A DNA stretch of 64,000 bases from Trypanosoma brucei (GCA_000002445.1 CM000207.1:96001-160000); one strand, 5' to 3'. Counted from the first letter of the stretch, positions 1 to 56,339 are shown. The notes: generated by a model not told the origin, from the letters alone. Made by a program: numbers and translations.

Positions 1-60
1 CTTTTGTCATTAACAAGGCGCCTCTATTGCTTGCAGTTTTTGTTTCTAGGATAAGACTTT
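1..60 (+). pseudogene. VSG: 3' terminal fragment of an upstream VSG (GPI-signal tail coding region), truncated by the window edge. Its 3' UTR follows to about 165.
   Basis: Translation ...PLLLAVFVS.. plus a downstream UTR closely homologous to the VSG end at 6905-7060 (cctcttttgcttgcagtttt...tttaaga..tattggtaaa). Confidence 0.5.
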
Positions 61-317
61 TAAGATTTATTGGTAAAAGCTTTTTGCCCCATTTTATAAA
101 ATTTATGATACTTTCTAAAATTGCGCAATTTTGACATGTTTTAAACTTGTAAAAAAATTGGCATATTTTTAAACGACAAAAAAATGTAGTTTTGGTACAA
201 AAATGGACTATGGTTGTAAAGTAGCAGAACGATGGGGTAACTTTTTCCTTGCTTTTCAGAAATTCTTCTAATATTGTTTATATTATGGATATGAGTAAAG
301 GTTATTAATAACATTTA

Positions 318-395
318 TAAAATTAATAATAATAAATAATAATCATAATAATAATATGAGTATGTATATTCTAATATTATAATAAGAGGAGTGGT
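318..395 (+). repeat. 70-bp repeat (VSG upstream recombination repeat), about 1 copy
   Basis: aataataataaataataatcataataataatatgagtatgtatattctaatattataataagagg: a TAA/TGA triplet run followed by GTGTATATAC..AATATTATAATAAGAG. Confidence 0.85.
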
Positions 396-1542
396 GGTGA
401 AGAATAAATGAACAGAAGAAATGAATTTCTTTAAAAATGGCAAAGTCACAATAAAAGTAAGTAAATTGGTGTGACGGTGAGAAAGAGAGAAAAACTGAAG
501 AGATAAAACAAGGAGTTTTATCAATAGAATGGGGAGCGAAAGAGAAAAATCAGGAAGTGAGGAAAAGGAAAAAGAACGATGGAATATACTGAGTTTTAAA
601 CACAATCATATTGATTGGCATGATTATACAAAAGGGTATGGAAAGTGAAATGAGGGAGAGAGTATGTGCGCTGTGGAGAAAACAAATAGAGTTTCTACGT
701 TATATGCAGGAACAGTACGAGAAGAGAAAATATAAGAAAGAAAAAAACAGAGTGAAAGAACTTGAAGAACTGTAGAGTAGCACAGAGGTTAATAATACAA
801 CAGTATGTTGCGCTCCTCATTTCAGACAAAAATGGGCTGATGCTGCTGCGGAGATAGTGAAGACTGTATTTTGTAATCTGATTCTTGATCATAATATCTA
901 GCTATAAATAAAAATAGATGAAAGGAAGTGGATAAATGTGATGTCATGTTAAAGTTTTCTTATCATTTTTACTATTAAAAGCCAACATTTGAGTCAGCAA
1001 CAATATGGTATTTTTTGGAGAAAGATTTTAATACTGAGATCACAAATGGATTTCTGTGAGAAGCAAAAGAATTGTTAAAATCGGTAAATGCTTAAAAAAG
1101 CATGTATGAAACAATCGGGAGGCTTTTTTCAAGTGAAGAGAATCAATAGTGATACTCTTTCGATTCCATATTGATGTGCTTTCCAGACATGAAGAACTCT
1201 CATAGAAAGAATATATTGTATAAAAGGTGTCGCTAACGCCAATATAAGTGGTTTTATTGACAAGTTAAAGGCAGCAATGAAGTTATATTCGGACAGAAAA
1301 TCACTGACTATTAAGCATCTGACAGAGTTATTTACGAAAAAAACGTGGCTAAAACACAAAGTCAATCTTATTCACGAACAACACAAGCGCTTCTTTGTCA
1401 TAGCACCACCATAAAAAGGAAGCTTTTCGACAGTAGCGGCTGAAAAAACATAAGATTCAAATTTTTAGGCATAGATATGTGTGCGGTTTTCTTACTTGGA
1501 ACAGAGGCTCAGGCTTGCGGCGGCACAGAGTATATTCAATGT

Positions 1543-1565
1543 ATATATATATATATATATATATA
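1543..1565. repeat. (TA)n microsatellite
   Basis: gtatatatatatatatatatatatagg, read directly. Confidence 0.9.
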
Positions 1566-2167
1566 GGGAACGACGAAGACGAGCAAGGCGGCAATATCAG
1601 ACTTCCTTGTGAAAAAATTGGCAATCAAAACTATAACCGTGCTTGTATTTACAAATTTTTATAAACGTCAAAAACACTTGCAACACAATTGAAAAAGCGG
1701 AGCTGAGAAGCCGAAAAAATTAATCTAAATAAACTGAACGCCGAGTTTGAAACATCGATTCAAGCACTCACGACAGACAAAATATCAATAGAAAATTTGC
1801 GCTTACTGAGCACCAGGCCACCGTGAGCAGATGAACCGTTCCTAGCTTACAAGTGTAGCCCGGGCACCACAGAGCATATCGCAGCAGCCAATAAGCAGTA
1901 GACAGTCATAGCGCAGGCAGGCCCAACGCCAACCGAGGTGATATTTAATCGCAAGTTTAGGCAAACACACGCCATGCATGTCAACAAACCTCTTTATATT
2001 TGTCACTTCTTTCTGAATTTTACTGATTACTTTTGTAAATGAGCGCCAAAGATTTTGTTTTAAAAACTAAGCTACTGTAGGCAGGGTTCCTACAATAGCA
2101 CAGGGAACTGAAGCAATTTATAAGATTATAGCGATTCCAGAAGCGCGATACATAAATTAATCAACAC

Positions 2168-3697
2168 ATGTCCAGTGGAACCGTCATTCTGACCTACATA
2201 CTTCTAATAAGTGCGTCACAACGCGACAGACGTCAGCTGCAGAAAGCATCGCTCTGAAAAACACGGTGTGGCAACCCATTTGCCAGCTATCAGAAGAACT
2301 GGGAACTCTTCCAGGCTTTGCGCTTGACCAAGCAGTGCAGGCGCTCAAAGCGGCACAAACTTTCGACATGGCTTCACAGCGGGCGCCATATACGCAGCGA
2401 TCAACATAGGGACACTTCTAGCCGAAAAGGCGACCCTTCTAAAAGATTATTACCCCTGGCTAGCTTCCAGGGCCTACGAAAAACTGAAAACCTCGGCCAT
2501 AAAAACTCAATTAAAAGCCGCAACAAAAAGAGCTTACATAAAGGGCAGAATGGACGACTATCTAGCGCTGCTCGCGCAGTCAACGACAGCATCAAACAAT
2601 GCTTGCTTACTGCCCGGAAAAACCAACGACGACGCCGCTGCTTACACAAAGGGTGCAACGATTGGTACAACGCCGTGCAAGCTACAGAGCCCAAGCCTAA
2701 AGTCGACAGAACGGTTTTCGTCGGAGCTAACAAATGACGGATACAAAAACCTAGCCAAGGGGGCTACGGCAGGAGACAACCACCAACAGGCCGACGGCGG
2801 CGACGGCAACAAGTGCAAACTTCTCAGCGGCTACAACACAAACGGCTATGCAAATTGCGGCGGTCTGACAACCAGTCCCAAAGTAATGGCCGGTTATATC
2901 GCGATACCAAACACGGCGAACGGAATAACCCTAGAGACAAAAGAAAACCTCAAAACAGCAAACAGGGAAGATACCAAGCCGTGGTATGAAGCCTTTGAAG
3001 CAACAAACAGATTAAGCACAGCGAACGACGTAGAGTTCCGCAACGATACTGGTGACTTACACAGGAAAACAACGCTTAAAGCCGCTGTCAAAGTGCTCTT
3101 GCTAGCCAAGCCCAAAGCGACTGACACTGACATGACAACGGCAATAGACAAGATCTTTGGCAATAAAACCGACGAAAAGAGAACGAATCTTGAAAATGCG
3201 ATAGATAACACAGAAATCCCAGGTGAAGTAACAAAGCAATCAGAAACGACGAGACTCGGCTCTATAACACACCTCGCAAAACTAAGTGAAGGACTGGCAT
3301 ATAAGCTCACAAAAGACCTCGAAGAAGATGCCAAACCGAAGGAAATCCCCAAAGAAACCACCGTCACAGACAAAGATTGCGTTTGAAAAAAAGGAGAAGA
3401 CTGTAAAGGGGATTGCGAACTTGTAGAAGAAGTTTGCAAACCCATAAAGAAAGGAGATAGAGAAAACAAAGAGAAAGATGGGGGAAAGCCCTCAGATAGG
3501 TGTACAAAACACGGCACTGACAAAACCAAATGTGAAGCTGAAAAAAACAGCAGGACAAACCCCCGTTTGTAGTTTCAGTAGTGGAAAAAGATAAAGAGGA
3601 TGACAAGGATGCAGAAATGTGCCGTGATTCCAGTTTTCTCGTCAATAAGAAATTGGCTCTGATTGTTTCTGCTTTTGTGGCTATGGTAGAATTTTAG
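2168..3697 (+). pseudogene. VSG: VSG pseudogene. N-terminal domain (A-type-like), Cys-rich C-terminal domain and GPI tail are spread over 3 frames.
   Basis: ATG at 2168 with signal-peptide-like MSSGTVILTYILLISA, then an in-frame stop. The long ORF 2550-3386 reads ..MDDYLALLAQSTTASNNACLLPGKTNDDAAAYTKG... The C-terminal domain ...CTKHGTDKTKCEAEK.. and tail SSFLVNKKLALIVSAFVAMVEF* end at 3697 in another frame. Confidence 0.8.
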
Positions 3698-3949
3698 CCT
3701 TTTTTTAGTTATAAAATTCTAATTATTCTCGTACAAGTTTGTGTGACTTATTATATTTATTAAAATTGTATATTTGTTTGCAGTGGTTGACAAATATTTT
3801 AAAATTGGATAAATTTTTAAAAATATAAAATTTTGGTATGAAAGTGGCCTATGTGTGTAATAAACCGAATTATAATGTACGAAAAATGAAGTAATATTAT
3901 GTGATTTTCCTAAATTGGTTAATTTTATGCATATTAGAAGTAAATTATG

Positions 3950-4020
3950 GTTATAATTATTATTATTATGAAAGAAGAGCGTCGCGAGTGTATATTCTAA
4001 TATTATAAAAGGAACAGTGT
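3950..4020 (+). repeat. 70-bp repeat
   Basis: ggttataattattattattatgaaagaagagcgtcgcgagtgtatattctaatattataaaagg. Confidence 0.8.
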
Positions 4021-5528
4021 AGCAGAGCAACAGGAAAGAAACAGTTAAAGCACTTATAATTTGCTGTCTGCCATAAGGTGGGTTAGTGAATGTGGCAGGG
4101 AGTGAGTAAAAAAGAGCAAAATAACAGCATTGAATGAAACGGAGAAAGATAAAGAGAAATGGAGATGGAATATGCGCAGTTTCAAACACTAGTATAGCGA
4201 TGGATATCATCATACAAAGGAAGTGATGTGTGATAAATGAAGAAGAGACATTGTGCAGTGTGCATGGCAAGTGCAATCCACATGTTTTATGCACAAATAG
4301 CAACAGAAAAACGCTGATGGTAAAATAAAGAGTAAAAAAACTTGACGCGTGACAGTGAAGCACAAAGATTACAAAAGAATAAACATGGCAAATGATCCCC
4401 GTATTTCAATTTAAAAAATATAGATGTAACCGCATATATGATAGCGTATCCTAGTATCTATTCCTCAAAAAGAACATGACAAAGAAGAAGCATTAAAAAG
4501 GAAAATTGGTAAGTGTCATGTAATATTTAAATGTTCTTTTCATAAGATATCGTAATAATAGTTAACACTTGTCGAAAAAATATAATATTATTGGTAGGAT
4601 CATTTTACAACTATGAATACCAGCGGCTTACCCTTAAAAACAAAATAATTATAAAAATTTAAAGCTTCTTAAAATAGAAAATAAATGAAGCGATAGAGGC
4701 TCTATACAAAGTAAAGAGAATAAACAGTACTATTCCACCAATTTTGCATTGGTTTAACGGCCAAACACTAATACAGTTTAAGGTGTGCGTAATTCATATA
4801 AAGATATATGTGCAAACCAGATTGGTGGTGCGAATCCGAAGAGGGAAAGAAGTATATAAAGCTCTTTTAGAATCAATTTACAACTCTCAAACATCTTCAG
4901 AGCTGAGTACGACAAATTTCAAAAAAAAAAGAAACAGTAGAGACCGCATCCGATCCGAATACGATGCTATTTTGTTAGTTAAAGTAAACGCGAAGGCACA
5001 AAATTAACAGGCGATAAATAGCGGGAGAGAGAGAGAGGGCCGTGCATGTTAAGCGTTTTAGCGGCATCAACACATACGGTATTTTCAGAGTCAACAGTGA
5101 AAAAGGTATAGCTGTAGATGCAAGACACAAGAAATATAGATGCCAACCGATATGGGTTAGAATTCAAAAGTTCAGATTCTTCGCGTAACATGCATGCTTT
5201 GTCTGACGCATAATGTGGCGGCCGAAACGCTGGAGATGTCCCTTCCATATTCCTTCCAGACGTCTGAAACAACCAACCGCGTCTTTCAGTGCATTGAAAA
5301 AGAAAACCAGAAAAAAGAGGCAGTGTCACGGCGGGGCCAATACACAACACAAATTCATTAAAAAATAAATAACTTGTAACGCTACCGTCTTTACAGCGCC
5401 AATAACATTAAGGAAAACTGAAATTAAACAGTCATACTAATACAGTCCTTTTCGGACACATAACATTTCCTATATCACTCCATTTCCACAATAAAACAAC
5501 ACAAAATATAGAAAGACAGCGTGACCAG

Positions 5529-6951
5529 ATGTTACTTAAAGCAGTCTTCCTTATGGCGTTAACGTCGAGCGGATCGTGCACGAACTTTCACACCTACGAC
5601 AAGCAAGTAGCGAGCCCTTGCGACAGCAGCCATTACCTCGACAACATGGTAGCAGCCGCCAGCGCGGCGCTCAAAGCGCCGACAACCTCAGTTCAGAAAG
5701 CGCTAGAGCAGGCAAGCCAAATGTCGCTACTGGCAGATACCGTCGACGGTGCGGAGCGCACGGCCGCGCACCTGGCAGCAGCGCTGGCGATAAGTCAAGC
5801 CGCGCAAGCAATTGAAAGCACAATCGGCCAGTGGGACAGTATAATAACTGGGATGGTGGCAGCAAGCAAGCTCGCGGCGACAGCCGCTTTAGTCGACGAA
5901 CTAGCCGAAACGACGACCACCGACATAGCGACGAAGACTACGGGAACGATCACGCCAGCAACTGATATGTCTGTGCAAGCAAAGCTAAAGCCAAACGAGC
6001 TGGGGTTTTGCAAACAGGCAGCTGGCGCATTGAAACAGACCAAAACCGCGGACAACACGCACAGTTCAACCAAAACAATCACCGCTTACGCCTTAAAACC
6101 AACACCGAAAGCCAGCGAAGCAACACGCGGAGAGAACATGGTTTGTCTTCTCACCGGAGCCAACACCGTATCCGGCCAAAAGTGCGGCACAACTGCGACA
6201 GCAGTGGGCTACAAAGGCGGAAGGCTCCTCGAAGCAACGCAAATTAAACTGACAAAAAACCCGGCGACACAGAACAAAACTACGCAGACACGACAGAAAG
6301 CGGGATTGTATCTGACAAAACGACGATCAACCAATTGTCGAAGCAGATTGCCGCAATGGAAAATGCAGCAGTCAAGTTAAAAGTAGCGGCTGCAGTTAGT
6401 CCCGAAGCAAGCGTAATCGACACAGCAACAAAAGATGCAATCGCGCGTTACCTGACAGACGAAAAAGCAGACTACAACAAAAATAAAGACGCTGTGGACA
6501 AATTTATATCAGACAACTTTGGGGAAGGCGGCAAAAATATCAAAGAAAAACTAGGCACAAAAGTCGAACAGATGAAGCCAACAAAGGCAGCTACTGGAGG
6601 AAATGGCTACGCCAAACTAACTGACCTCGTCCGCACCGATGAACTTAAGAAAGCTCAACTTTACTACACTGTAGCTGCCTTAGTCAAAGAGCAAGAAGAA
6701 AAGAAGAAAAAACAGGCAAGTCCATCATGTCCCTCAAAAGCAGACAAAGCGTCAGAACCACCCAATCAGCAGACGAATGCAAAAAGCACTTAACAGAGAA
6801 ACCCTGTAAGGATGAAAAAGGTTGCGAATTTGATGAGGAAAAACCAGAGGGTGAAAGATGCTTTCCAAAAGAAAACTCATCTACGACCTCAACAGTAAGC
6901 AATTCTATTGTGATTAAGATACCTCTTTTGCTTGCAGTTTTGACTCTATGA
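5529..6951 (+). pseudogene. VSG: VSG pseudogene with two frameshifts (frames 0, 2, 1)
   Basis: Signal peptide MLLKAVFLMALTSSGSC. N-terminal-domain ORF 5529-6380. Continuation ORF 6335-6793. C-terminal domain CKDEKGCEFDEEKPEGERCFPKENSS.. and GPI tail IPLLLAVLTL* ending at 6951. 16-mer-like tgatatattttaatag at 7039-7054. Confidence 0.85.
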
Positions 6952-7038
6952 TGAAATTTTAAGAGCTATTGGTAAAGGATTTTCGATCGTTTTTATAAAC
7001 ATTTCGTATTATGAGGAATTTCTAAATTTGATAGCATT

Positions 7039-7054
7039 TGATATATTTTAATAG
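7039..7054 (+). promoter_or_regulatory. VSG 3'-UTR 16-mer variant (mRNA stability element)
   Basis: tgatatattttaatag versus consensus TGATATATTTTAACAC. Confidence 0.6.
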
Positions 7055-7239
7055 TTTTTGATGAAAATTTAAAATTTGTTGAAAATGTGAAAGATATGTA
7101 AAATATGACAATTTTGTAATGTGTGCATGATTGTAGCCTATGGGTGTAGAGTATCATGGTGGTGGGTTATAAAAAATTAGTGATGTTCTCAAAGTTGGAT
7201 TACTTGTTTATATTATGCATATTAGGAGTAATTTAAGGT

Positions 7240-7325
7240 TATAATAACAATAAGTTTTATTATTATGATAGTTATATAAAGAGAGTATTGTGAGTGTGTA
7301 TACACTAGTATTATAATAGTTGAGA
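7240..7325 (+). repeat. 70-bp repeat
   Basis: ggttataataacaataagttttattattatgatagttatataaagagagtattgtgagtgtgtatacactagtattataatag. Confidence 0.85.
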
Positions 7326-8782
7326 CTGAAGAAGAAATGGCATTTCCAAATAATACTATTGAAAAAAATGGAAATGGTGCAATGGAAGTAAGTGAGTATG
7401 ATTGGAATGAGTAGAAGCGAACAGGAATTTTATAATAATAGAATATGCAAAGGGGAAGGAGTATACGCACTTGTGAACTAAGAAGTAAAAACAATCATTA
7501 TATTCATGTATATAGAGGCCTTTATCTGAAAGAGGAACTTGATAGCTGACACAGAAATGGTAGATACTACTTTTTACAAAGCAGTAGCAAAGGAGAGATG
7601 ATTTGTTGAAAGTTTGGTAAACAACAGCAGCAAAAGAATAGTATAACAGAGACAGTAAACGATGAAGCCAGTGTATGAGGTAAAACAATCTAATGATAAT
7701 CAACAAATTGCTTGTTGGAATACTTCTTGGACACTAGTGCCGTAAAATAAGCGATTAAGTAACATAGGAGTTTTCGATTCTTTACATCTTGCGGTACAGA
7801 TTAATAAACATGTCGCGAAAAGCACTTTCAGTACCGAATCGACCGAGCATTAGGCAATTGCGGCGCAAAGCAGCACCACCAGCGAAAAACCCCAAAAGAA
7901 GAATACGTGTTCGAGAAACACCAACTCTATCTTTTGAATTAAAGTTAAAACGAATCAAAAAAACAACAACTGAGAACCTGCAGTTAGTACCATAAATTTA
8001 ATAGTTTTTAAATATAAATATAGAAAAGCAGGGTGTAATGATAAAAGTTAACAAAACGTGTTTTTACTGTGTGAATTTCTTATGTAACTAACATCCAAAT
8101 GACAACTGTAGTGACGCTTCCTTTTATTCTTTCCTTTGAAGAGAACAGAAGCAAGAAACTATTTACACCGTCATGGCAGAATGGTCAGAATAAAAGCAAG
8201 GCAACACCCAGTACACAAAACACGATGAAAGCTCCACCCAAAACACGAGCACCAAAAAGCAATCACACTTAACCCAAATGGAAAGAAGGCACCGACGCAA
8301 AAGACAACAAACCGACTAAGCGGAAGCAACTCCAAAAAAGTTCACAATTCCGTGGTGAGTTCCAACCACTAAGCAGACGATGCGGACAGCAGAAGTTGAC
8401 TGAAACGAAAATATCTTTGACAACTACAAAATGACAATGAACACATGGTTGTGATAAGCAGCACTAGTAGATAAACAACCTCAAAATCTTGCTACAACGA
8501 AAAGGCCTATATATCAAAAGAAAATATATCTAAGAGCATTACATTCGCCCGCGTTACCAATACTCAGGCGTCATATAACGACAATAAACCAGCACTCAAA
8601 CAAAGCTTGGTATATTGAACAACAAAAAATATAAAAAACCAATAACCAGGCTTTAACAACTAGTCAATGCAGTGTTTAACCACAGCTGTTCCTAGCACTA
8701 AAATATGCTCTACAAACTTTATTATTTTTTGTTAAATTGTTAAGAAGTTAAACACAAAGCAACAAAGCAGCTACCGACTTAC

Positions 8783-10294
8783 ATGCTTCTACTACTCGCT
8801 TTAACGGCTACAATAATAAGAAATGACGCTCAAGCGCAAATACACGAAGCACCAAAAATTATAGCCTCAGCATGCGACTCAACGCGACAAACAGAACACG
8901 TGTTAACACAAATCAAGAGCAAAATTGAAACAGCATTTCAACAGATAGTTCTAGGTAAAAAAACATCCGCGAAATTGTCAGTGGCGGCGGCAGCGAGCAC
9001 AGGGGAGAAGGCAGTAGCTTACGCGGCACTAGCAGCAAGCGCAGCAGTAAAACTACAGGCCGCGGAACAAAACCTGCAAAGCAATCTGGACGCCCTCCTC
9101 AAAGGCGCGGCAGCGGCCGCCGAACTCACGGCCACAGAAGAACTTGTATCAGAGGCAGCGGACCTTTCTTTAGAAGCAAGGTCAGGGGCGCGGACATCAA
9201 CTGCATCGGGGACGCAGGGCGGTCTACCACTGAGGTTCGCAAGGTTCGGCGGTGGGAAGAGCAAATGCGACACAGCCAAGGAGGCAGCCGATCAGAGAAA
9301 AGCGGCTCCGGGAACCAAAGGCGGCGACAAAATCTCGTTCGCCCACCTGCAAAACCGACCAAAAATAGGCAACGACAAAAAGCTAGCTGCACTGTGCGGC
9401 GACGACAATACACCGCCTAACAACTGCGACGGAAGCGCGGACGCCGACCTGACCTACTTCGAAATAACAACTGGGACCCTACTCACAGAAAAGATGAAGC
9501 AGTACAACAAAGGACCCCAACCCACAGATGGATACACACCAGACACGCCGGAGCCGACAGCCTTACTGCCGAGGGAAACTTACGTAACTGGCCGGCTCAA
9601 CATTATAAAGCAAGCAGGACATGCGTACGACAGCATAACCTTTACAGCAGACAGCTTAAAAAACTCTGCGCTGGTGACGGACGGCACAACACAAGCTCTG
9701 CTAGAAACGACATTGCTCACACAAAAGGAGCGCGAACAAACCGATATACGACAAAATAAATTAGAGGAAATAACGGCCCGCTTGTATGGCAAAGCGGGCA
9801 CAGACGTCAAGGCGCGCATATGGGAGCCAATTGAAATAATACCGATACAAGCGGAAGCTACAGAAGACAACAAAGCCACAGAGCTAAAGCACCTCACAGA
9901 CATAGGCAAACTCAGACGGGCAGCAGCTTTTTACTTAGCCAAGCAAGCCACAAAAGCCGAAACTGCAGCAGTGCAGAAGGCAACGGAATCCACGGAAAAA
10001 ACAGAGAGAGCAAAAACAACAGAAAATAGGAAATATGGGGATAAAAAAGATGAGGTTTGCAAAGCCACTGACGAAAAAGATTGCGACAAAAACAAATGCG
10101 AATGGAATAAGGAAAAGAATGAGTGCAAAGTTAAAGAAAGTGCTTTTATTATTTCTGTATCAATTAAGGCGATTCTTCTGCTCAAATATTTTGGTTTTAG
10201 TGTGAAATATTTAATATTTTTTCAAATAAACTCTATAAAATTGATAGGGTTTTTTGATTTTGAGAGAATCTTATATTTTGAAAGATTATGGTAA
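8783..10294 (+). CDS. VSG: VSG, apparently full-length (503 codons), but with an atypical extended C-terminus (possible lost stop)
   Basis: Single ORF from ATG 8783. Signal peptide MLLLLALTATIIRNDAQA, N-terminal domain, C-terminal domain CKATDEKDCDKNKCEWNKEKNECKVKE. The hydrophobic tail SAFIISVSIKAILLL is then followed by about 30 extra codons before the stop. Confidence 0.65.
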   Translation: MLLLLALTATIIRNDAQAQIHEAPKIIASACDSTRQTEHVLTQIKSKIETAFQQIVLGKKTSAKLSVAAAASTGEKAVAYAALAASAAVKLQAAEQNLQSNLDALLKGAAAAAELTATEELVSEAADLSLEARSGARTSTASGTQGGLPLRFARFGGGKSKCDTAKEAADQRKAAPGTKGGDKISFAHLQNRPKIGNDKKLAALCGDDNTPPNNCDGSADADLTYFEITTGTLLTEKMKQYNKGPQPTDGYTPDTPEPTALLPRETYVTGRLNIIKQAGHAYDSITFTADSLKNSALVTDGTTQALLETTLLTQKEREQTDIRQNKLEEITARLYGKAGTDVKARIWEPIEIIPIQAEATEDNKATELKHLTDIGKLRRAAAFYLAKQATKAETAAVQKATESTEKTERAKTTENRKYGDKKDEVCKATDEKDCDKNKCEWNKEKNECKVKESAFIISVSIKAILLLKYFGFSVKYLIFFQINSIKLIGFFDFERILYFERLW

Positions 10295-10429
10295 AATCTG
10301 ATATATAATAATTCTTTTGAAAATTTCAAAAATTCAGTGAAAATGTAAATGATAGTGGCGTATAGGTGTATAAATATATGGCGATAAGAAATAAAATATA
10401 TCACTTTTTTATTATGTTTATTTTATGGT

Positions 10430-10520
10430 TATTAGTTAGGGTTATAATGCCAATAGTAAAAAATGATCATTATAGGAAAGTATTTGAGTATGTATATACT
10501 AATATTTTATTAAAAACGTT
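10430..10520 (+). repeat. 70-bp repeat (degenerate)
   Basis: ggttattagttagggttataatgccaatagtaaaaaatgatcattataggaaagtatttgagtatgtatatactaatatttta. Confidence 0.7.
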
Positions 10521-11479
10521 TGTGAAAATCAAAAGTTGTGTTACATATAAGCTCTTAATATAATGCCAAGCGTACGACGAGAGTAAGTGACTGTGATGGA
10601 AAATGAGAAATGAAGATGAAATATACGCATTTTGAAGCACACAAATAAATATTGCTGTTATCATGCACAAATATAATGATGAAAGGGACATAGGGGGAGA
10701 TGCAGAATTCATAGTATAACTCAAATTTTTCTACTATGGCATCCGCAGAGGCACGGACAGCAGAACACAAAAATTAGGAAAGAAAATATGGAGTGGAACA
10801 ACCTGATATTCCTAAATCACGGCAAATTTTAAAAGAAACATCAGGAATACCAATTCCAATTATCCTCCGTGCTTTGCTCAAAAATAGATAAATGATACCG
10901 TAGAAATTCTAGTAGAAACAACAGTATTAGTAGTTCATAAAGCAATGGTGATGAAAGGCCTGTACTCAAACCTATTTTGGTGATAAGTGACAGAGGATAC
11001 TAGTAGCATTCTTTGTAAAATGCGAACGCAGTACTGTATCTAGCCACTTAAATCCCATATTGACATATATAAATAGAAAATGTGAGTACATGGAACAGTA
11101 GATTACATGTAGTGCTCAGAAACACTATGTGTATTATGACCTAATTCTTGAAGAAAAACAATATGAAAAATAAGTTTGGCAAACTGAGTACACATCCTTC
11201 AAAAGATGTATCATAAAAATATAAAGGAATTACTTATATGCATAAACAAAAAATCCTTAGATAGACATCTTAGAGAAGAAAATGACTAATTTCCTTTACA
11301 TTTTTATGTCTTTTTTACAACTCCATCAAATTTTTAGAGATAGGTTTTGGAATGAACTTTTGTACCTTAAAAGTTTCATTATTGCCGCTGCTATTGCATT
11401 TCATGTGTTTAAGATTAATATCCCTTCAAGATTACGAAAAAATAACAAGCAAATATAATAAATAATGATACTAAGAAAC

Positions 11480-12320
11480 AAAATGTGCTTCTGGTTGTTG
11501 TTCAAACTCATGCAACACAAAGATGGTTTAGGTTAATATTGAGTGCTAAACTAAGCCATGTTGAAATTATTACAATTGTGATGGGAGGTTTGTATAACCA
11601 TATTAAAAGATCTGGATAGGTTGTACAATATTGATAAAGGCATAATGCAACTGATGAGGATATTGTAATTCATTTGGACGGGTCTGATGCTATTTTTTTT
11701 GATCGTCATAAAAATGAGATTGATGTAGAGTATTTTATATATGATAATGCAAATATAGAACAGAATATTTACAAAGAGCATGTGGAGAGATTCTATTGAT
11801 TTTTTAATGTAGGTTACAGAAAACGGAAGTATAAAAAGTTACCTCATTTACTGAAATCACCTCCTAGCGGAAAACCTTATCTTAGTGGTGGTGAGTTAAT
11901 AGCAAGAGTTTGGGAAAATTATAAATTTAATATGCATTTGGGAATTATTAAATGGAAGAGAGGAATTGTAGTCAGATCAGATAATTTACAAATTTTTCAT
12001 GATTTGTACTGAAATTAAAGAAGAAGCTGTTGTACAGAGATTTGTTTTGAGGAAGGGAGTGAGTACATTATATTATAAATAGAGATTCTTTTCCATTTCA
12101 AATAGTGAAGAAATCGGAGAGGCACCATTCATACATTTTACAGGATAGCCAATTGCGTAGGAACGGAAAGAAAAGTTGGTTTTGAAATATCTTATTTGTT
12201 ATAGAGAGCTGGAAAAGAGGAAGTTTGATGCTGAATATTTGGATAAAATTGAAACTTATGTAGTCAGTTGAGATAAATGGGGTTTTAAAGATGGAGAGAT
12301 TGTGGTGAGTCATACAAATG
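11480..12320 (+). pseudogene. Copy 1 of a dispersed ~0.75-kb element: degenerate GT31/Fringe-like glycosyltransferase relic (possibly ESAG3-like)
   Basis: Shares ...attgagtgctaaactaagccatgttgaaattattacaattgtgatgggaggtttgtataaccat... with copies at 36385 and 49255. Translations: DEDIVIHLDGSDAIFFD (DxD-like) and KLPHLLKSPPSGKPYLSGGELIARVW (YxSGGG-like). Confidence 0.5.
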
Positions 12321-12840
12321 AGGGGATTTGTTTAAGTCCGAGAAACTATAAACAACAGCAATATTCTGAGCTCAACAAGTTAGATGCAGCTAAACTGCGC
12401 AAATACCTGCAACTAGAAACGTAAAATAGTCAGCTCTGTCTACCGAACTCATGTCAAACAGCTAGCCAGCCAGCATCCAGAACTCACTCACCTAACGATG
12501 CACGTGCCCTCACAAGAAGACCGCCGCAGGCAAACATCTTTTCGGCAGCAATTGGCGCAAACCTCCATCGCAAACAGAGACGAGAAAATGGCGGTCGAAA
12601 AAACTGGCCGTGCGAACGAAAGACGTAGCCCCCTTCAAGACCCACGGCACCTGAATATTAGCAGCAAAGCAACATACTTACACAGCCGACCCGACTCGAG
12701 GTTGCAGCGAAACAAACATGAGCAGCCGCTGCAACTAAATTCAAATCCCAGAAAATACCACACCCTAATAGCAAAGCCGACTCCGCGTGTAGCTCCTCAC
12801 CAATATTTTAAAGTCGTTTTTTGACACCACATGCGATTCA

Positions 12841-14449: not shown

Positions 14450-14734
14450 CATTTTAAAACTCTAGGAATTTTTATTCAATTTTTGAAAATTTGTAAAATT
14501 TAATATATCGAGAGAATATGCCAAAATCTGCTAAAATTTAATTTACTTTACTCTCTTTTTGATGAAAATGTGCGAATTAGTGAAAGCTTTGTAAATATAT
14601 AAAATTTAACATTTTATTGAAATGTGTATGGTAGGTTCATATGGCTGCAAAACAGTAAGCTAATAGGGTGTAAGAAATGGGTACTGTATTAATTTGTTTA
14701 TTTTGGTTATTTTGTATATTTTATGGATATTTTT

Positions 14735-20482: not shown

Positions 20483-20496
20483 ATATATATATATAT
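20483..20496. repeat. (TA)7 microsatellite
   Basis: taatatatatatatatatgg. Confidence 0.85.
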
Positions 20497-34100: not shown

Positions 34101-34102
34101 TC

Positions 34103-50338: not shown

Positions 50339-51892
50339 ATGGAACGCACCATAAGCTGGACTAATCTTTGCCCAGCTTCAGCCACGCTTATACTGTTGCT
50401 TTTGCAACTGTCGGAAGCCGCAACTACAAATGGGAAAACGCCCTGGCTTTCAGTGCGCTCTTCGACCTTTATAATCTAAGGCATGCGACCGCGCCATCTG
50501 CGCGGGCAAGGCAATTTTTTGCAGCGGATGATGTAGTAGAAACGCTTTTTAACCTGAACCTCAAAACGGTGAGGAACACGCTTCAGAGACAAAAGATGAC
50601 GATTTTAAAGGAGTTTCGGATATCTCCGGAAGGAATGTGCAGCTGCAACCATGGGTCAGCAAAGTTAAAGCTATCGATGATCTGGGCAAGTCAGGCACTA
50701 AACCGGGGCCTTATGCACCAGTTCCATCAAACCTGTACAAGCCAATAGCCAATGCTCAAATAAGCTCGATGCACGCTCAAGCGACAAAACTGCAAGAAGA
50801 ATACACCAACGCTCTAAAAGTTATACAGGAAGCGCCAAACACAGCAGCAATACACATAGCCAACTCCATATACGGCCAAGACAAAACAACGTTCGACGCT
50901 TCAGCCTTCACCAACACCAAAAAGCAGATGTGCGGTGACTGAACAAACGGCCACGCAAACCTCTACCGCAACGTAATAAACGACATGCTTTGCCTTTGTA
51001 CAGCGGACAGCAGCGAATCGGATAAAACCTGCGTGGAAAAAAACATAGGCGACGTCGCCAGCGACACAACCGAAGCGGCGACAGCAGCATCAAATCTTGA
51101 AGGAACCTGCACACAAAAAAAGAAACAAAAAAAGAGCTCTAAGAAGCGCTAATCCAGGCCAAGCTGGCGGATTTTTTCAACAACGTAGGCGCCATACCAG
51201 ACAGTCAGACTGACCCATCGGTACGATTCGTACTCGGCGAGGCGCATGGCGGTGGATGCGTAGGCTCAAGCGACACCCAATACGTAAATTACAAAGCTCA
51301 GTTTGCCACCGACGGCCGCGGCATTCCCTATGTAACCGAGATGGAGGCAGCATCTGCAGGCTTAAGGCTGGCCGCCGCATCCTACAGCCTAGCAGTCAGC
51401 ATCGAAGACGAGCTAAAAAGTCTGAAAGAGTAGGCAACCAGCCTACGAAGTGCAGCAGTCATAATCATTGCTCTACCTGATCGGACGGCTGAAGCGGCAC
51501 TCAATATCCCTAAAGAACTAAGTGAAAGTGCAGAAAAGGCTTGTAATAAAATAGATGAAGACAAATGCAACGCCGATAAAAAGTGCAGTTATGAAGCGAA
51601 AATTGATGGGACTAAAAGTGCAAATATATTGCAACAAAATACACAGCAAATGGTGTCCCTGCAACACAACCTCAAACTAAAGGAACACCTACTGTTAACT
51701 GTGCTGCCCACAATGACAGAGCAAACTGTGAAAAGGAAAATTTTGGAAAATCAAGCCCCTTTTGTGGATGGAGAAAGGGCAAAGATGGAGAACCTTATCA
51801 AAATAAAGAAATGTGTTGAAATTGAAGTTTTCTCGTCAATAAAAAAATTGCCTCTGATTGCTGTTGCTTTTATAAGTTTGGAAGCACCTTAG
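50339..51892 (+). pseudogene. VSG: VSG pseudogene (highly fragmented)
   Basis: ATG 50339 MERTISWTNLCPASATLILLLLQLSEAATTNGK. Fragments 50368-50748 and 50637-50942. C-terminal domain ..ELSESAEKACNKIDEDKCNADKKCSYEAKIDGTKS.. and tail ..KKCVEIEVFSSIKKLPLIAVAFISLEAP* end at 51892. Confidence 0.75.
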
Positions 51893-52134
51893 GATTATAA
51901 TGGTTTTATAAAAATTTGCCTAATTTTATGAAACCTTATGAACTTACCGAACTTTAATATATTATAACAAGTGTTGAAAAAATATATAATTTTAGCGGTT
52001 TGAAACTAAAAAAAAGTAAAAATTGGTTTAAAATGAGTGAAACTTACCTATGAGTGTAAAGTAGGAATATAGGGAATGCACACAAATGATATTCTGAAAA
52101 CTTTATAATTTGACTATTTTGTTCATTTTATGAA

Positions 52135-52195
52135 TAACAATAATAATAATAGAAGAGTGTTGTGAGTGTTTATATACAAATATTATAATGAAGGT
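52135..52195 (+). repeat. 70-bp repeat
   Basis: gaataacaataataataatagaagagtgttgtgagtgtttatatacaaatattataatgaagg. Confidence 0.9.
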
Positions 52196-53638
52196 GGTTG
52201 TAAAGAGTAAGTGCAAGGCGAAATAGAAGTACATAAAAATGAGTATAGTGCAATAAGTGACAGTGTGAGTGTAAAAAGAGTGTTATTAATATAAAATGGA
52301 GAAAAGGGGAAGCAAAAACGTGTAGTTTTAAATACAAATATGACAATAGGAATAATTATACACAACACGATTGTAGAAGACAATGAGGGAGAGGAAGAGC
52401 ATGGATTTAATACCAAATGAAGTAGTTATGTTATCCATGTAAGCATGAAAAGAAAAAAGTAAAAGGAGCAAAACATGGATTGGAAAAACGAGATTCACAA
52501 CATGAAAGTACAGAAGAAAATAAGTAGGAAGATTGTGCTCTTCATTTCACCAATAAAAAGATGGACGCTTCCGCGAAAATAATGGTGGCGACTGTGGTTT
52601 TAAATCTAACGCCAGATCCTAACGTTCATCTATAGAGCCTCAGCAGAGGCAGAAACGATGGATTGGATAAGTGTGAGGTAATGGCGAAGTCCTTTTCCAA
52701 TCAGATATAGTAATAAAAGTTAAAATTTGCGGGAAACAATATAATGCTATGTGTAGAAAAGGTTCTATACTAGGGTTACCAATGGATTTCCATGAAGAGA
52801 AAAGAATAAGAAGCCTGCTAAACTGCTTGAAAAAGCGCATCTGTGGACTTTTAGAAGTACTTTGCATAAAGTTAAAAAGTTTTGTGACAACGTGCTGACA
52901 ATTCTATGCAGGTACACGTGTGTAAAAATGACGCCTCCTAAAGATCATACAATTAATGAAAACTTTGTCAATGACACCAACTAAAACTGAATCTTAAAAA
53001 AGTAAAACTTAAAATGCAGCTATTCGTGATCCGCAAATTACTGTGTTTTAAACTGTAGCGCAGTTAACCCACCAGCACCACTAAAAAGAAGTTAACTCAA
53101 CAACGAAAGCTTGGAAAACAAATACTTTATTATGCTTTTTTAACCTAGAGTAGTGCAACGAGTTAACACAAAAATAGATTTCATTACAAGCGATAACTAT
53201 TATATTTTATATTAGGGAATTATTAGTGCTTGGTGAAAGAATGGAAAGTGAAGCAGCGGAAGAAAAGATAGGAATTTTATAGATGCGGGTAAACATGGGT
53301 TTAAATCTGGTACGCAATCATAAATTAGAAGTTAAAGCGTAAAAAAGTAACCCATATACGTGGGTAACCTGTGTATAGCCTGGAGACCCAAAATCGGTAG
53401 GTGCAAGATACTCAGTTTTAGTTGCTGCATACAGTGTCAGGTTTCCAGGCAGATGCTGCTAACAAAGCATGCCATGACCGCATAAGCCGTCTTGTAGCAT
53501 GGAATGACCTGCTAACACCGGCTGACCGACCATGCTACCTAGTCTTAACCAAAACAACAGAGGCTATTCAGTAAGGTGTCTCACTGAAAAGACTGGTTTT
53601 TCTATGCTTAATTGCCGCCTACAACACATAGAAGCAAT

Positions 53639-55250
53639 ATGAACAAGATTTTGCCTACAGTAGGTGAGGCAACGTCGCTTCCACGCCGAATGAAAGTCTT
53701 TTTCGCAATAATAGCAGCAGCAGCGGCACTAAAGGAGGCGGCTGCAAACGACGGCCCAGCGCTAAACATGGAAGAGCTAAATGCGGTCTGCGAGGTTTTC
53801 AATCTTCTCAAAGCTGATACGACCAAACTCCAAAAGCTAACTCTAGACGAAACCGAAATAGTCGTGATAAGAGCACTAAACATATCAGTCTCTGATCCGG
53901 AGTGGAATCAGCAATTTCCAACAGTTTCCGACCGCGGAAAAGACGCCCAACTCAGAGGAAGATCCGTGCAAGAATGACCCGAAAAACAAAAAATGCAGCG
54001 CAGAATGAAAGGCATGGGCAGCCGACAACATCAGAGCAAACACCGATGGAACGATGCCAAAGAACCTACCAATTCCCAAGGCTAAGCTAGCGACACCAGA
54101 AGGCAGGGCGGCAGCAATGCAACTGGCATCCTTAACGGCAGAGGCAGTGGCGACAAAATTGGAATTCGAACGCAGCATCAACGGAGCGCTCACAGATGTG
54201 GCATCAAGAGTCACAGCCTTGCCGACGGAAGCGATATACGGTCAGCAAACAGACGGCAAGGAAGAAAATGTCCAGTGAAAACTAGCAACGGGAAGCCAAA
54301 GACATGACATATGTGCCATGCCGAACGTCGGCGATGCATTGTGCACAAAACTAGCCTGCATCTGCAGCAAGAACAACGAAGGGACAATGACAACCGACGT
54401 ATGCGGCGCGCCAACAACACAAACAGTAACTAAGACATCACCATCGACGTACCAAGCAGCCGCGGCAACTCTATTAAAAGTCTGTCAGAAGGCCGCGGCA
54501 CAGGAACTCACACCGCACAACATACACAGATTACTAGGCAACCTAAAGTCTCTGCTGCGAACCAAAGCCAACGCCGCCAACATGGCGGTCATCCTGGGTA
54601 AGATGGGAACAACATACCAATGTGGGAACACGGCGGGCACGGCATGTGCTGACTTTACAAAAGCAGTCATAACAAAAGAAGCTAACACACCTCAGGAAAT
54701 CAAATTGGAAACGAACCTGAAAAATGCAGCTAATGCTTTAGCGCTAGCAGCAAACGCACAGGCGGCCCAAAGCGAAGCAAAGCGACGATTAATCAGTTTC
54801 AAACGAAAGGCGAAGCATCTCTTTGAACACCTGGCTACAAAAAAATGACAGCCGCACCTCAAATCACAGCCAAACAGCTCAATAGCGAAGAAAAAACAGC
54901 CAACTGCGAAGCAATAATGAAAGCAGCCAAAATGCCAATGGAAAGGCAAAAATAATGAGGATGGCACCCACTTCAAACTGAACGAAACACACGTAGTAAA
55001 ACAAACGACCCAAACAGGAACAGGAGATGGAGCTGCAGGAGCAGCATCTAAAACTGGGTGTGCAAGGCACGGAACTGATAAGGCTGCTTGTGAAAATGAC
55101 AAAACAGGGGACAAACAAAATTGTGCATGGAGGAAGGGTAAAGATAATGAACCTGATCTAGAAAAAGAAATGTGCCGAAATGGAAGTTTTCTCCTCAATA
55201 AGAAATTGGCTATGATGTCTGGTACTTTTATGAGATTGGGAGCATTTTAT
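53639..55250 (+). pseudogene. VSG: VSG pseudogene (frameshifts; stop after GPI tail mutated)
   Basis: ATG 53639 MNKILPTVGEATSLPRRMKVFFAIIAAAAALKEAAANDGPALNMEELNAVCEVFNLL. ORFs 54054-54278 and 54318-54848. C-terminal domain ..TGTGDGAGAASKTGCARHGTDKAACENDKTGDKQNCAW..EMCRNGSFLLNKKLAMMSGTFMRLGAF then tat instead of tag. 16-mer tgatatattttaacac at 55331-55346. Confidence 0.8.
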
Positions 55251-55514
55251 TATTTTAACAAATTTGTTGAATTTTATGAAATATGTTATTTTGAGAGAAT
55301 TTACTGAAATTTATGAAATTTACTAAAACTTGATATATTTTAACACTTTTGTCAAATATGTGAAAATTTTAAGAATTTGAAAATGCCAAAAATATGAAAT
55401 ATTGGTATTACATGTACGATAGTGACCTACAGGCAAAAACATTCTTTTAAGAAGATATTAAAAGTGATTACTATTTTCATTTTGTTCAAATTTTTAATTT
55501 TATGAATATTAGTT

Positions 55515-55600
55515 GTGGTTATAATAGTAGTGAAAATAATAATGATAATAGTGATATGAGTGTGTTATGAGAGTGCACATACTAATATTATAATAGGAAT
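55515..55600 (+). repeat. 70-bp repeat (last in the array)
   Basis: ggttataatagtagtgaaaataataatgataatagtgatatgagtgtgttatgagagtgcacatactaatattataatagg. Confidence 0.85.
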
Positions 55601-56339
55601 GTTTCAATAGACTAAATTTGCAAGATAGAATAAAAGACATTAAAACAATGGAAAGGATGAAATAAGAGTGATTAAGAGAGTAGGATATTGAAAGTGGGAG
55701 AGCATGAGAAATATTATTAATAGTAACACAGAAAGACATAAAGAGGAAGAAAGAGGGGGACGGAATATGCGCAGTCTCAAACAAAAAAGATGATAATGGT
55801 CGTCACTACACACAATGAAATGAGAGAGGAACAGATTATAGAATGATGGCAAATTGGTGGCACTACATCATCAGAAGAAGAAGCGATAATAGGTCAACAA
55901 TAAGAAGAAAAATATGTAAAAAAATGACTGAATAGGCGACAGTGCAGAGCATATGTAAATAGAGCATCAGGAGAAGATTGTGCTCCACATTTCAATCAAA
56001 AATAGATAGATGCGACTGTGAAGATGAAAGTGACTGTGATTTTAAATCTGATGGCGGATCCTGATGCGTCGCTGTGAAGTGGAAGAGAAAGCGGGAAGGA
56101 ATTGGTAAGTGTGAAGTATTTTCAAAGTCTTCTCATCAGATAGAGAAACAATAGCTGACATTTGTGAGCTACAATAAAATATAATTAGACGAAGTATTTT
56201 TAAAAAGTCATTGCCAATGGATCACTATGAACAAAAAATAAAAGTAATAACGCTGAAACTACTTGAAATAGCGCATATTTGGACCGTTAGGGGAACTTTA
56301 TATGATATGGAAGATTTTGTAATGATACGCTAGCGATTC

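What the first reader, a model, noticed from the sequence alone, without database searches (positions are those of the whole stretch)
1..56300. Co-oriented array of 15 VSG cassettes (70-bp repeat, VSG, 16-mer UTR): a silent antigen archive
Every 3-5 kb the same module recurs on the + strand: a 70-bp repeat, about 1.3-1.9 kb of spacer, a VSG ORF (signal peptide, N-terminal domain, Cys-rich C-terminal domain, GPI tail), then a 3' UTR with TGATATATTTTAACAC-like 16-mer. This is the architecture of T. brucei-group subtelomeric VSG arrays. About 12 of the 15 genes are pseudogenes, which matches the known high pseudogene fraction of such arrays.
Basis: partly seen in the sequence, partly recalled or inferred. 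Interest (0 to 1): 0.5.

Follow-up and report, generated by a model that had tools for sequence, protein, structure and literature searches.

The report
Silent VSG gene array, Trypanosoma brucei

Summary
The observation and the interpretation both hold. Fifteen 70-bp-repeat loci (20 copies) lie on the + strand between 337 and 55599, spaced 3.1-5.0 kb apart. Between them are 15 VSG genes or pseudogenes: 8 with A-type N-terminal domains (one only probable) and 7 with B-type. There are also two C-terminal-domain relics and the tail of a further VSG cut by the window start. No VSG homology or self-similarity is found on the minus strand. Three uninterrupted ORFs are 100% identical to annotated T. 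b. brucei TREU927 proteins on a 3,057,547-bp record: XP_803376, XP_803378 and XP_803379.

Corrections:
- The 16-mer is recognisable at 11 of 18 VSG 3' ends.
- The spacer from repeat to gene ranges from 0.47 to 3.1 kb.
- One interval holds two VSGs with no repeat between them.
- The last repeat (55531) has no VSG after it.

The array ends near 55.6 kb, and an ESAG1-family gene on the opposite strand follows. This is already known. The only mildly interesting side observation is short interstitial TTAGGG tracts followed by C-terminal-domain relics behind two VSGs, which suggests capture of copies that were once telomeric.

The parts
1..336 (+). Tail of an upstream VSG cut by the window start. 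GPI-signal codons (..FVINKAPLLLAV..) lie at about 1-50, followed by a 3' UTR with a decayed 16-mer.
   Evidence: Sequence read directly. 21-144 is 74% identical to the 3' end of cassette 2.
337..3949 (+). Cassette 1. 70-bp repeat at 337-391. A-type VSG pseudogene at about 2161-3688, spread over several frames, with no start codon or signal peptide. The 16-mer is decayed.
   Evidence: nhmmer E 3.4e-4. Pfam Trypan_glycop E 2e-58 on stitched fragments and 2.8e-43 on ORF 2550-3386. GPI-signal hit at 3584-3688.
3950..7255 (+). Cassette 2. 70-bp repeat at 3950-4016. A-type VSG pseudogene at 5529-6948 with two frameshifts. 16-mer at 7039-7054 (2 mismatches).
   Evidence: Pfam Trypan_glycop E 1.6e-6. 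Three collinear hits to my A-type profile.
7256..10459 (+). Cassette 3. 70-bp repeat at 7256-7320. A-type VSG as a single ORF at 8783-10294. Its normal stop is lost and the C-terminus runs on. The 16-mer is decayed.
   Evidence: 100% identical to XP_803376, 'VSG, atypical', TREU927. Pfam Trypan_glycop E 5.9e-5. Translation.
10460..14762 (+). Cassette 4. 70-bp repeat at 10460-10507. Conserved spacer element at 11485-12198. B-type VSG pseudogene at 12841-14440 with at least 2 frameshifts.
   Evidence: Pfam VSG_B E 5.4e-48. tblastn to window VSGs. GPI-signal hit at 14363-14440.
14763..19622 (+). Cassette 5. 70-bp repeat at 14763-14801. Two VSG pseudogenes with no repeat between them. 5a is B-type, 16159 to about 17600, truncated at its 3' end. 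5b is probably A-type, about 18005-19460, with a signal peptide, a C-terminal domain and a GPI signal.
   Evidence: Pfam VSG_B E 2.6e-34 and C-terminal domain E 3.3e-12. The N-terminus of 5b has only weak A-type support: E 0.002 and hhalign E 0.0026. Its C-terminal domain scores E 4.8e-12. Sequence.
19623..22916 (+). Cassette 6. 70-bp repeat at 19623-19693. A-type VSG pseudogene at 21147-22716 with a frameshift. The 16-mer is decayed.
   Evidence: Pfam Trypan_glycop E 1.5e-10. GPI-signal hit at 22639-22716.
22917..26775 (+). Cassette 7. 70-bp repeat at 22917-22986. B-type VSG ORF at 24955-26475 with no signal peptide. The GPI signal is shifted into another frame (26445-26519). 16-mer at 26597 (1 mismatch).
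   Evidence: Pfam VSG_B E 2.2e-23. Translation.. The exact protein is not in the collection.
26776..30533 (+). Cassette 8. Two 70-bp repeats at 26776-26928. A-type VSG pseudogene at 28595-30238. 16-mer at 30344 (2 mismatches).
   Evidence: No Pfam hit on the ORF itself. It has 34 relatives, and 8 of the 10 scanned are Trypan_glycop proteins. tblastn to the cassette 3 VSG gives E 4.7e-15.
30534..35312 (+). Cassette 9. Two 70-bp repeats at 30534-30696. A-type VSG pseudogene at 32259-33694, with one in-frame stop and one frameshift. 16-mer at 33729. T-rich tract at 33745-34108. TTAGGG-like tract at 34109-34132. Conserved module at about 34210-34520. Complete C-terminal-domain relic at 34720-35076 with its own 16-mer at 35120.
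   Evidence: PDB sequence hits to VSG558 (E 4.1e-22) and VSG13 (E 5.2e-11). Pfam C-terminal domain E 1.8e-10 covering profile positions 1-104..
35313..39574 (+). Cassette 10. Two 70-bp repeats at 35313-35425. Conserved spacer element at 36370-37044. Intact B-type VSG ORF at 37814-39334 with a signal peptide and a GPI signal. 16-mer at 39397 (1 mismatch).
   Evidence: 100% identical to XP_803378, 'VSG, atypical'. Pfam VSG_B E 5.2e-71 and C-terminal domain E 8e-17. Translation.
39575..44046 (+). Cassette 11. Three 70-bp repeats at 39575-39842. Intact B-type VSG at 40315-41913, only 0.47 kb downstream of the repeats. 16-mer at 41978. TTAGGG-like tract at 42129-42173. Module at about 42230-42660. 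T-rich tract at 42661-43054. Second TTAGGG-like tract at 43055-43085. Module at about 43096-43440. Partial C-terminal-domain relic at about 43490-43769 with its own 16-mer at 43865.
   Evidence: 100% identical to XP_803379, 'VSG, putative'. Pfam VSG_B E 6.4e-72 and C-terminal domain E 1.5e-27..
44047..47167 (+). Cassette 12. 70-bp repeat at 44047-44111. A-type VSG pseudogene at about 45279-46850 with an in-frame stop and frameshifts. Perfect 16-mer at 46909.
   Evidence: Pfam Trypan_glycop E 3.3e-18..
47168..52125 (+). Cassette 13. 70-bp repeat at 47168-47235. Glycosyltransferase-like pseudogene at 47905-48899. Conserved spacer element at 49243-49993. B-type VSG pseudogene at about 50365-51889 in many frames. 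16-mer-like motif at 51955 (3 mismatches).
   Evidence: Galactosyl_T E 0.0011, below the Pfam cut-off. VSG_B E 6e-35 on stitched fragments. C-terminal domain E 8.4e-5..
52126..55530 (+). Cassette 14. 70-bp repeat at 52126-52196. B-type VSG pseudogene at about 53690-55238. Perfect 16-mer at 55331.
   Evidence: Pfam VSG_B E 9.5e-28 and C-terminal domain E 1.1e-19..
55531..55599 (+). Last 70-bp repeat. No VSG follows it in the remaining 8.4 kb, so the array ends here.
   Evidence: nhmmer E 5e-14. No VSG profile hits beyond 55238 on either strand.
61848..62831 (-). ESAG1-family gene on the opposite strand. It lies outside the array and marks its boundary.
   Evidence: Pfam ESAG1 E 1.8e-115. 100% identical to XP_803380 of TREU927.

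Best explanation
The window is a piece of a subtelomeric silent VSG array of Trypanosoma brucei brucei TREU927, a reference genome that is already annotated.

Shown here:
- It holds 15 head-to-tail VSG units.
- Almost every unit is preceded by 1-3 copies of the 70-bp repeat.
- Each unit ends with a conserved C-terminal domain and 3' UTR.
- All units point the same way.

Inferred from established knowledge of T. brucei antigenic variation:
- These genes have no promoter of their own and are not expressed in place.
- A gene is used when it is copied by gene conversion into a telomeric bloodstream expression site.
- The 70-bp repeat supplies the upstream homology for that copying, and the C-terminal domain and 3' UTR (which contains the 16-mer) supply the downstream homology.
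- The two intact genes (37814-39334 and 40315-41913) could be copied whole.
- The frameshifted or truncated majority can contribute only segments to mosaic VSGs.
- In an expressed copy, the 16-mer is needed for high-level VSG expression.
For: - Identity. Three ORFs are 100% identical over their full length to TREU927 proteins XP_803376, XP_803378 and XP_803379, all on one 3,057,547-bp record. The neighbouring ESAG1-family gene is XP_803380 on the same record.
- VSG domains are found in every interval.
- Twenty 70-bp repeat copies in 15 loci are all on the + strand, and the core motif is about 50-fold enriched over shuffles.
- The published 16-mer occurs at 11 VSG 3' ends.
- No VSG profile hit and no self-similarity is found on the minus strand.
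- The N-terminal domains are all mutually divergent. Self-BLAST finds only C-terminal domain, UTR, repeat and spacer similarity, as expected for a diverse archive.
- A T. equiperdum array locus (L001) shows the same modular layout.
- Literature: array structure, pseudogene share and recombination role in PMC3467770; the 70-bp repeat in PMC4858185; the 16-mer in PMC9044945.
Against: Nothing contradicts the explanation. The caveats are these:
- Silence, lack of promoters and use as conversion donors come from the literature and cannot be tested on sequence alone.
- The 16-mer is decayed at 7 of 18 3' ends, and one VSG (5b) has no 70-bp repeat of its own, so not every unit is a complete cassette.
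- The A-type assignment of 5b rests on weak scores (E about 0.002).
- The chromosome number and the subtelomeric position were not checked. Only the record length is known.
Confidence: 0.97

Rival explanations
1. The region is a bloodstream or metacyclic VSG expression site, meaning a telomeric transcription unit, rather than a silent array.
For: VSGs, 70-bp repeats, short TTAGGG tracts and an ESAG1-family gene are all also components of expression sites.
Against: - An expression site carries one telomeric VSG behind a long tract of many 70-bp repeats (39 in Lister 427 BES1; PMC4858185). Here there are 15 VSG units, each with only 1-3 repeats.
- The ESAG1-family gene lies downstream of the array on the opposite strand, not upstream on the same strand.
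- The TTAGGG tracts are only 24-45 bp long and internal.
- Most of the genes are pseudogenes.
Confidence: 0.01
2. The architecture is the same, but the DNA comes from a different T. brucei-group genome (another T. b. brucei strain, T. b. gambiense, T. b. rhodesiense, T. evansi or T. equiperdum) that shares these genes.
For: VSG arrays with the same layout exist in T. equiperdum (L001). The cassette 3 VSG has relatives at 90% identity or more in other T. brucei VSG collections (cluster 3).
Against: Four separate proteins in the window are 100% identical to consecutive TREU927 accessions on a single record. The best non-TREU927 relative of the 40315 VSG is only 71% identical. VSG repertoires differ strongly between strains.
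Confidence: 0.02

Closest known systems
Subtelomeric (chromosome-internal) silent VSG arrays of T. brucei TREU927, described with the genome sequence and in later analyses of the VSG archive (reviewed in PMC3467770)
   Same: Everything that defines the arrays matches: co-oriented VSG cassettes, 1-3 70-bp repeats upstream, a conserved C-terminal domain and 3' UTR with the 16-mer downstream, a majority of pseudogenes, mixed A-type and B-type N-terminal domains, and occasional ESAG-related or glycosyltransferase-like relics. Protein identity to TREU927 entries is 100%.
   Different: Nothing differs in kind. The local details are one interval with two VSGs and no repeat between them, two C-terminal-domain relics, and short TTAGGG tracts behind two VSGs.
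Bloodstream VSG expression sites (PMC2567434, PMC4858185)
   Same: They share the building blocks: 70-bp repeats upstream of a VSG, a VSG 3' UTR with the 16-mer, GGGTTA-like sequence downstream of the VSG, and ESAG1.
   Different: Expression sites have a promoter, a run of co-oriented ESAGs, tens of 70-bp repeats and a single VSG next to the telomere. The window has none of that organisation.
T. equiperdum VSG array on contig QSBY01000016.1 (locus L001)
   Same: It has the same cassette layout, with 70-bp repeat loci every 3-3.4 kb on one strand and both A-type and B-type VSGs. It also has the same composite: VSG, 16-mer, TTAGGG tract, GTGATGCAGCGGC repeats, T-rich tract, C-terminal-domain relic, 70-bp repeat.
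   Different: The VSG genes are different. Only C-terminal domain, UTR and flank segments align, at 70-81% identity.

Membership tests
T. brucei silent VSG array | Genes encode VSG N-terminal domains (Pfam PF00913 A-type or PF13206 B-type) | tested here: met
   Pfam hits are significant for 12 of 15 units. Cassette 8 is supported through relatives that are PF00913 proteins. Cassette 9 is supported by solved VSG558 and VSG13. Unit 5b is only weakly supported.
T. brucei silent VSG array | VSG C-terminal domain (PF10659) and a hydrophobic GPI-signal tail | tested here: met
   PF10659 hits. GPI-signal profile hits at 14 3' ends. The tails can be read directly.
T. brucei silent VSG array | One or a few 70-bp repeats upstream of each VSG | tested here: met
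   Fifteen loci with 1-3 copies each, all on the + strand. Exceptions: unit 5b has none of its own, and the last locus has no VSG behind it.
T. brucei silent VSG array | Conserved 16-mer TGATATATTTTAACAC in the 3' UTR | tested here: met
   Present with up to 3 mismatches at 11 of 18 VSG 3' ends and decayed at the other 7. The motif sequence is confirmed in PMC9044945.
T. brucei silent VSG array | Many tandem cassettes in one orientation, with a majority of pseudogenes | tested here: met
   All 15 units are on the + strand, with no minus-strand VSG hits. Four have uninterrupted ORFs, and two of those have both a signal peptide and a GPI signal. Literature figure of about two-thirds pseudogenes: PMC3467770.
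T. brucei silent VSG array | Subtelomeric position on a megabase chromosome | not testable with these tools
   All that is known is that the matching proteins sit on a 3,057,547-bp TREU927 record. The T. brucei genome is not in the DNA collections offered, and look-ups of the exact proteins returned no contig.
T. brucei silent VSG array | Transcriptionally silent, with no promoter of its own | not testable with these tools
   This needs RNA or ChIP data. The promoter scanner covers bacterial sigma-70 sites only and was not used.
Bloodstream expression site | A long tract of tens of 70-bp repeats, a single telomeric VSG, and co-oriented upstream ESAGs | tested here: not met
   At most 3 repeats per locus, 15 VSG units, and the only ESAG-family gene is downstream on the opposite strand.
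Minichromosomal VSG | 177-bp repeat core with a single telomeric VSG | tested here: not met
   Tandem Repeats Finder reports no array with a period near 177 bp, and there are 15 VSG units.

The most novel reading that the evidence does not exclude
Two cassettes in the window (9 and 11), and one in a T. equiperdum array, share a composite structure. A VSG with its 16-mer is followed by a T-rich tract. Next comes a 24-45 bp TTAGGG-like tract pointing the same way as the gene, then a conserved module of about 300-450 bp that starts AAGTGATGCAGCGGCT. Last comes an orphan VSG C-terminal domain with its own 16-mer, just before the next 70-bp repeat. The reading not excluded is that these are fossil telomere junctions. 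On that reading, a VSG was copied together with its telomere-type 3' flank and pasted over the 5' part of a resident array cassette. Arrays would then be renewed by capture of telomeric copies, and such scars could be used to date and count those events genome-wide. I found no description of this in the searchable literature, but the older trypanosome literature and the main archive analysis (Marcello and Barry 2007) could not be read.
Probability: 0.15. Interest if true: 0.35.

Novelty: already known. Interest (0 to 1): 0.1.

Why it matters
VSG arrays are the store of coat variants that lets African trypanosomes outrun antibody responses, so they matter biologically. This particular stretch, however, is part of a published, annotated reference genome and adds nothing new. 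The value of the check is to confirm that a tool-free reading recognised the architecture and the pseudogene share correctly. It also supplies an exact map of the cassettes, with type and state for each gene. If the telomere-scar composites turned out to be undescribed, they would offer a sequence marker for how array genes are replaced.

Tried and rejected
- Exact-protein contig look-ups for the two intact VSGs and for the repeated hypothetical protein returned nothing. The TREU927 DNA context therefore could not be fetched.
- A chimeric query of four Pfam-negative ORFs in the large protein search gave no hits and cost one search. This was probably a candidate-selection effect of a long alanine-rich query.
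- The PDB sequence search found nothing for the cassette 8 ORF, the 5b N-terminal domain or the conserved spacer element.
- Pfam found nothing for the spacer element, either as one copy or as a stitched reconstruction. My impression that it looks like a decayed glycosyltransferase or ESAG3-like gene therefore remains untested.
- The 70-bp core hit at 12296 was rejected as chance.
- Rfam and tRNA scans were empty.
- Marcello and Barry 2007 could not be read. Literature searches for interstitial telomere repeats in VSG arrays found nothing specific. A search for the 70-bp core as a text string found no paper.
- The expression-site and minichromosome readings were considered and rejected on repeat number, gene number and the absence of 177-bp repeats.

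Full report

Yes. The GT-rich core of the 70-bp repeat (GAGAGTGTTGTGAGTG, up to 3 mismatches) occurs 15 times, always on the + strand. Dinucleotide-preserving shuffles give 0.31 on average. Read in context, 14 of these hits have the full repeat layout, (TAA/TRR)n, the GT-rich core, then TGTATATACGAATATTATAATAAGAG. The hit at 12296 has neither flank and is a chance match.

A profile built from 13 copies finds 20 copies in 15 loci, all on the + strand. The loci start at 337, 3950, 7256, 10460, 14763, 19623, 22917, 26776/26859, 30534/30626, 35313/35380, 39575/39680/39768, 44047, 47168, 52126 and 55531. Thirteen of the 20 match by construction. The other seven are additional, more decayed copies with E between 3e-4 and 1e-7.

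The 16-mer TGATATATTTTAACAC (up to 3 mismatches) has 12 matches on the + strand, against 1.39 expected on both strands. Eleven of them lie at VSG 3' ends. Base composition alternates between AT-rich spacers and blocks of about 45% G+C that are purine-rich on the + strand. No RNA genes were found.

**2. What the ORFs are**

Pfam gives strong matches for the long ORFs:
- 37814-39334: VSG_B E 5e-71 and the VSG C-terminal domain E 8e-17.
- 40246-41913: VSG_B E 6e-72 and C-terminal domain E 1.5e-27.
- 24955-26475: VSG_B E 2e-23.
- 2550-3386: A-type Trypan_glycop E 3e-43.
- 8783-10294: a weak A-type match.

For the fragmented genes I joined the + strand stop-to-stop pieces of each interval and scanned them. 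This gave A-type domains in intervals 1, 2, 6 and 12, and B-type domains in 4, 5 and 14. It also gave C-terminal domains in 5, 9, 13 and 14. A cleaner stitching of interval 13 gave VSG_B E 6e-35.

Two Pfam-negative genes were settled by other routes:
- The 28595-29692 ORF has 34 relatives in the representative library. Eight of the ten I scanned are Trypan_glycop proteins.
- 32607-33641 matches the solved structures of VSG558 (E 4e-22) and VSG13 (E 5e-11) by sequence.

Profiles that I built from the collected A-type and B-type proteins hit only the + strand. They also located GPI-signal tails at 14 3' ends. Self-BLAST finds no inverted similarity at all. On the direct strand it finds only repeats, C-terminal domain and UTR segments and one spacer element. 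The N-terminal domains are therefore all different from one another.

**3. Where the sequence comes from**

The 532-residue product of 40315-41913 is 100% identical over its full length to XP_803379/EAN76229, 'variant surface glycoprotein (VSG), putative' of T. brucei brucei TREU927, on a record of 3,057,547 bp. Further exact matches on the same record:
- 37814-39334 is XP_803378 ('VSG, atypical').
- 8783-10294 is XP_803376 ('VSG, atypical').
- The minus-strand gene at 61848-62831 is XP_803380, an ESAG protein.

The best relative of the 40315 VSG outside TREU927 is only 71% identical. None of the partial ORFs of the broken genes exists as a protein entry. That fits their not being annotated as protein-coding. 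The window is therefore a piece of the published TREU927 genome. From memory, the record size suggests chromosome 9. I could not check this.

**4. The cassette map**

Exact coordinates are in the parts list. There are 15 VSG units:
- A-type: cassettes 1, 2, 3, 6, 8, 9 and 12, and probably 5b.
- B-type: cassettes 4, 5a, 7, 10, 11, 13 and 14.

Four units have an uninterrupted ORF of about 500 codons:
- 8783-10294 (cassette 3) has lost its normal stop and runs on past the GPI-signal position.
- 24955-26475 (cassette 7) has no signal peptide, and its GPI signal lies in another frame.
- 37814-39334 (cassette 10) and 40315-41913 (cassette 11) have both a signal peptide and a GPI tail.

The other eleven units carry frameshifts, in-frame stops or truncations. 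It also agrees with the published statement that some two-thirds of array VSGs are pseudogenes (PMC3467770).

Beyond the 15 units there are three further pieces:
- The window starts inside the GPI-signal tail of a further VSG.
- A complete orphan C-terminal-domain relic lies at 34720-35076.
- A partial orphan C-terminal-domain relic lies at about 43490-43769.

**5.

- The 16-mer is recognisable at 11 of 18 VSG 3' ends. At the other seven it has 4 or more mismatches.
- The distance from repeat to gene start is mostly 1.2-2.4 kb, but it is 0.47 kb in cassette 11 and 3.1 kb in cassette 13.
- The three longest spacers (cassettes 4, 10 and 13) share an element of about 700 bp at 70-78% identity. 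Cassette 13 also carries a glycosyltransferase-like relic (Galactosyl_T E 0.0011, below the Pfam cut-off).
- Interval 14763-19622 contains two pseudogenes. The first is cut off inside its C-terminal domain. The second starts about 400 bp later with no 70-bp repeat of its own. Its N-terminal A-type assignment is weak (E 0.002 and 0.0026).
- The fifteenth repeat locus (55531) is not followed by a VSG, so the array ends at about 55.6 kb.

**6. How it works**

What is shown here is the anatomy: co-oriented cassettes bounded upstream by 70-bp repeats and downstream by a conserved C-terminal domain and 3' UTR.

What follows is established knowledge of T. brucei antigenic variation, not tested here. 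Array VSGs are not transcribed in place. They are activated by duplicative gene conversion into a telomeric expression site. The 70-bp repeats provide the upstream homology, and their (TAA)n tracts are thought to be break-prone. The 3' end of the gene provides the downstream homology. Pseudogenes contribute segments to mosaic genes (PMC3467770; PMC4858185). [quoted passage not shown]

**7. Rivals**

- An expression site is excluded. There are at most 3 repeats per locus, compared with 39 in the main tract of Lister 427 BES1. There are 15 VSG units instead of one. The ESAG1-family gene is downstream and on the opposite strand.
- A minichromosome is excluded, because there is no 177-bp repeat.
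- Another strain or subspecies is very unlikely, given four exact matches to consecutive TREU927 accessions.

**8. Side observation**

Three short TTAGGG-like tracts lie on the + strand at 34109-34132, 42129-42173 and 43055-43085. Each follows a T-rich stretch (46-55% T). Each is in turn followed by a conserved module that begins AAGTGATGCAGCGGCT. After the last module in each cassette comes the orphan C-terminal domain with its own 16-mer, and then the next 70-bp repeat.

A T. equiperdum array locus fetched through a related VSG (L001, contig QSBY01000016.1) has the same order of parts: VSG, 16-mer at 671, TTAGGG tract at 840, GTGATGCAGCGGC repeats, a T-rich tract, a C-terminal-domain relic at about 1950-2190, and a 70-bp repeat at 2535. 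Window 41864-42186 aligns to its positions 575-870 at 71% identity.

One paper notes that the region between a telomeric VSG and the telomere contains GGGTTA-like sequences (PMC11229358). My inference is that these VSGs were copied together with a telomere-type 3' flank and pasted over the 5' part of a resident cassette, leaving its C-terminal domain behind. Cassette 11 fits a recent event of this kind. It has the only fully canonical gene, the most 70-bp copies (three) and the shortest spacer. This reading is not demonstrated. I found no description of it, but I also could not read the key archive paper.

**9. Verdict**

The feature is a textbook, already annotated part of a reference genome, so interest is low.

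Noticed in passing
window 34109-34132, 42129-42173, 43055-43085 (modules at about 34210-34520, 42230-42660, 43096-43440); L001 840-851: Short interstitial TTAGGG-like tracts lie behind two VSGs, pointing the same way as the genes. Each is preceded by a T-rich tract and followed by a conserved module that starts AAGTGATGCAGCGGCT. The same arrangement occurs in a T. equiperdum array. It looks like the 3' flank of a telomeric VSG carried into the array.
   Followed up: partly
window 34720-35076 and about 43490-43769; L001 about 1950-2190: Orphan VSG C-terminal domains, one complete and one partial, each with its own 16-mer. They sit between the telomere-like flank and the next 70-bp repeat. They are probably what is left of resident VSGs whose 5' parts were overwritten.
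   Followed up: partly
window 11485-12198, 36370-37044, 49243-49993: An element of about 700 bp is shared at 70-78% identity by the three longest spacers between repeat and VSG, all upstream of B-type VSGs. Its translations read like decayed coding sequence (for example ..DEDIVIHLDGSDAIF.. and ..GLIARVWTFKKFEYAFGELLKG..), but there is no Pfam or PDB sequence match.
   Followed up: partly
window 47905-48899 (+): A glycosyltransferase-like pseudogene lies inside the spacer of cassette 13. The Pfam Galactosyl_T match is E 0.0011, below the curated cut-off, and contains a ..KADDDIFIRV.. motif.
   Followed up: partly
window 58219-59603 (+): Overlapping ORFs carry four CxxC...H motifs resembling zinc fingers. 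The 202-residue ORF is 96% identical to a 228-residue 'hypothetical protein, conserved' of TREU927 on a 1,193,948-bp record. That protein belongs to a 21-member cluster, so this is a dispersed repeated element of unknown kind.
   Followed up: partly
window 61848-62831 (-): An intact ESAG1-family gene (327 aa, XP_803380) lies on the opposite strand 6 kb beyond the last 70-bp repeat. It is convergent with the array and marks the array boundary.
   Followed up: yes
window 39575-40314: The only fully canonical VSG (40315-41913) has three 70-bp repeats and just 0.47 kb between repeats and start codon, against about 1.5 kb elsewhere. This is consistent with a more recent arrival of this cassette.
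   Followed up: no
window 17530-18005: This is the junction between pseudogenes 5a and 5b. 5a breaks off inside its C-terminal domain and has no GPI signal, UTR or 70-bp repeat. About 400 bp later 5b begins. It looks like a deletion or recombination scar.
   Followed up: no
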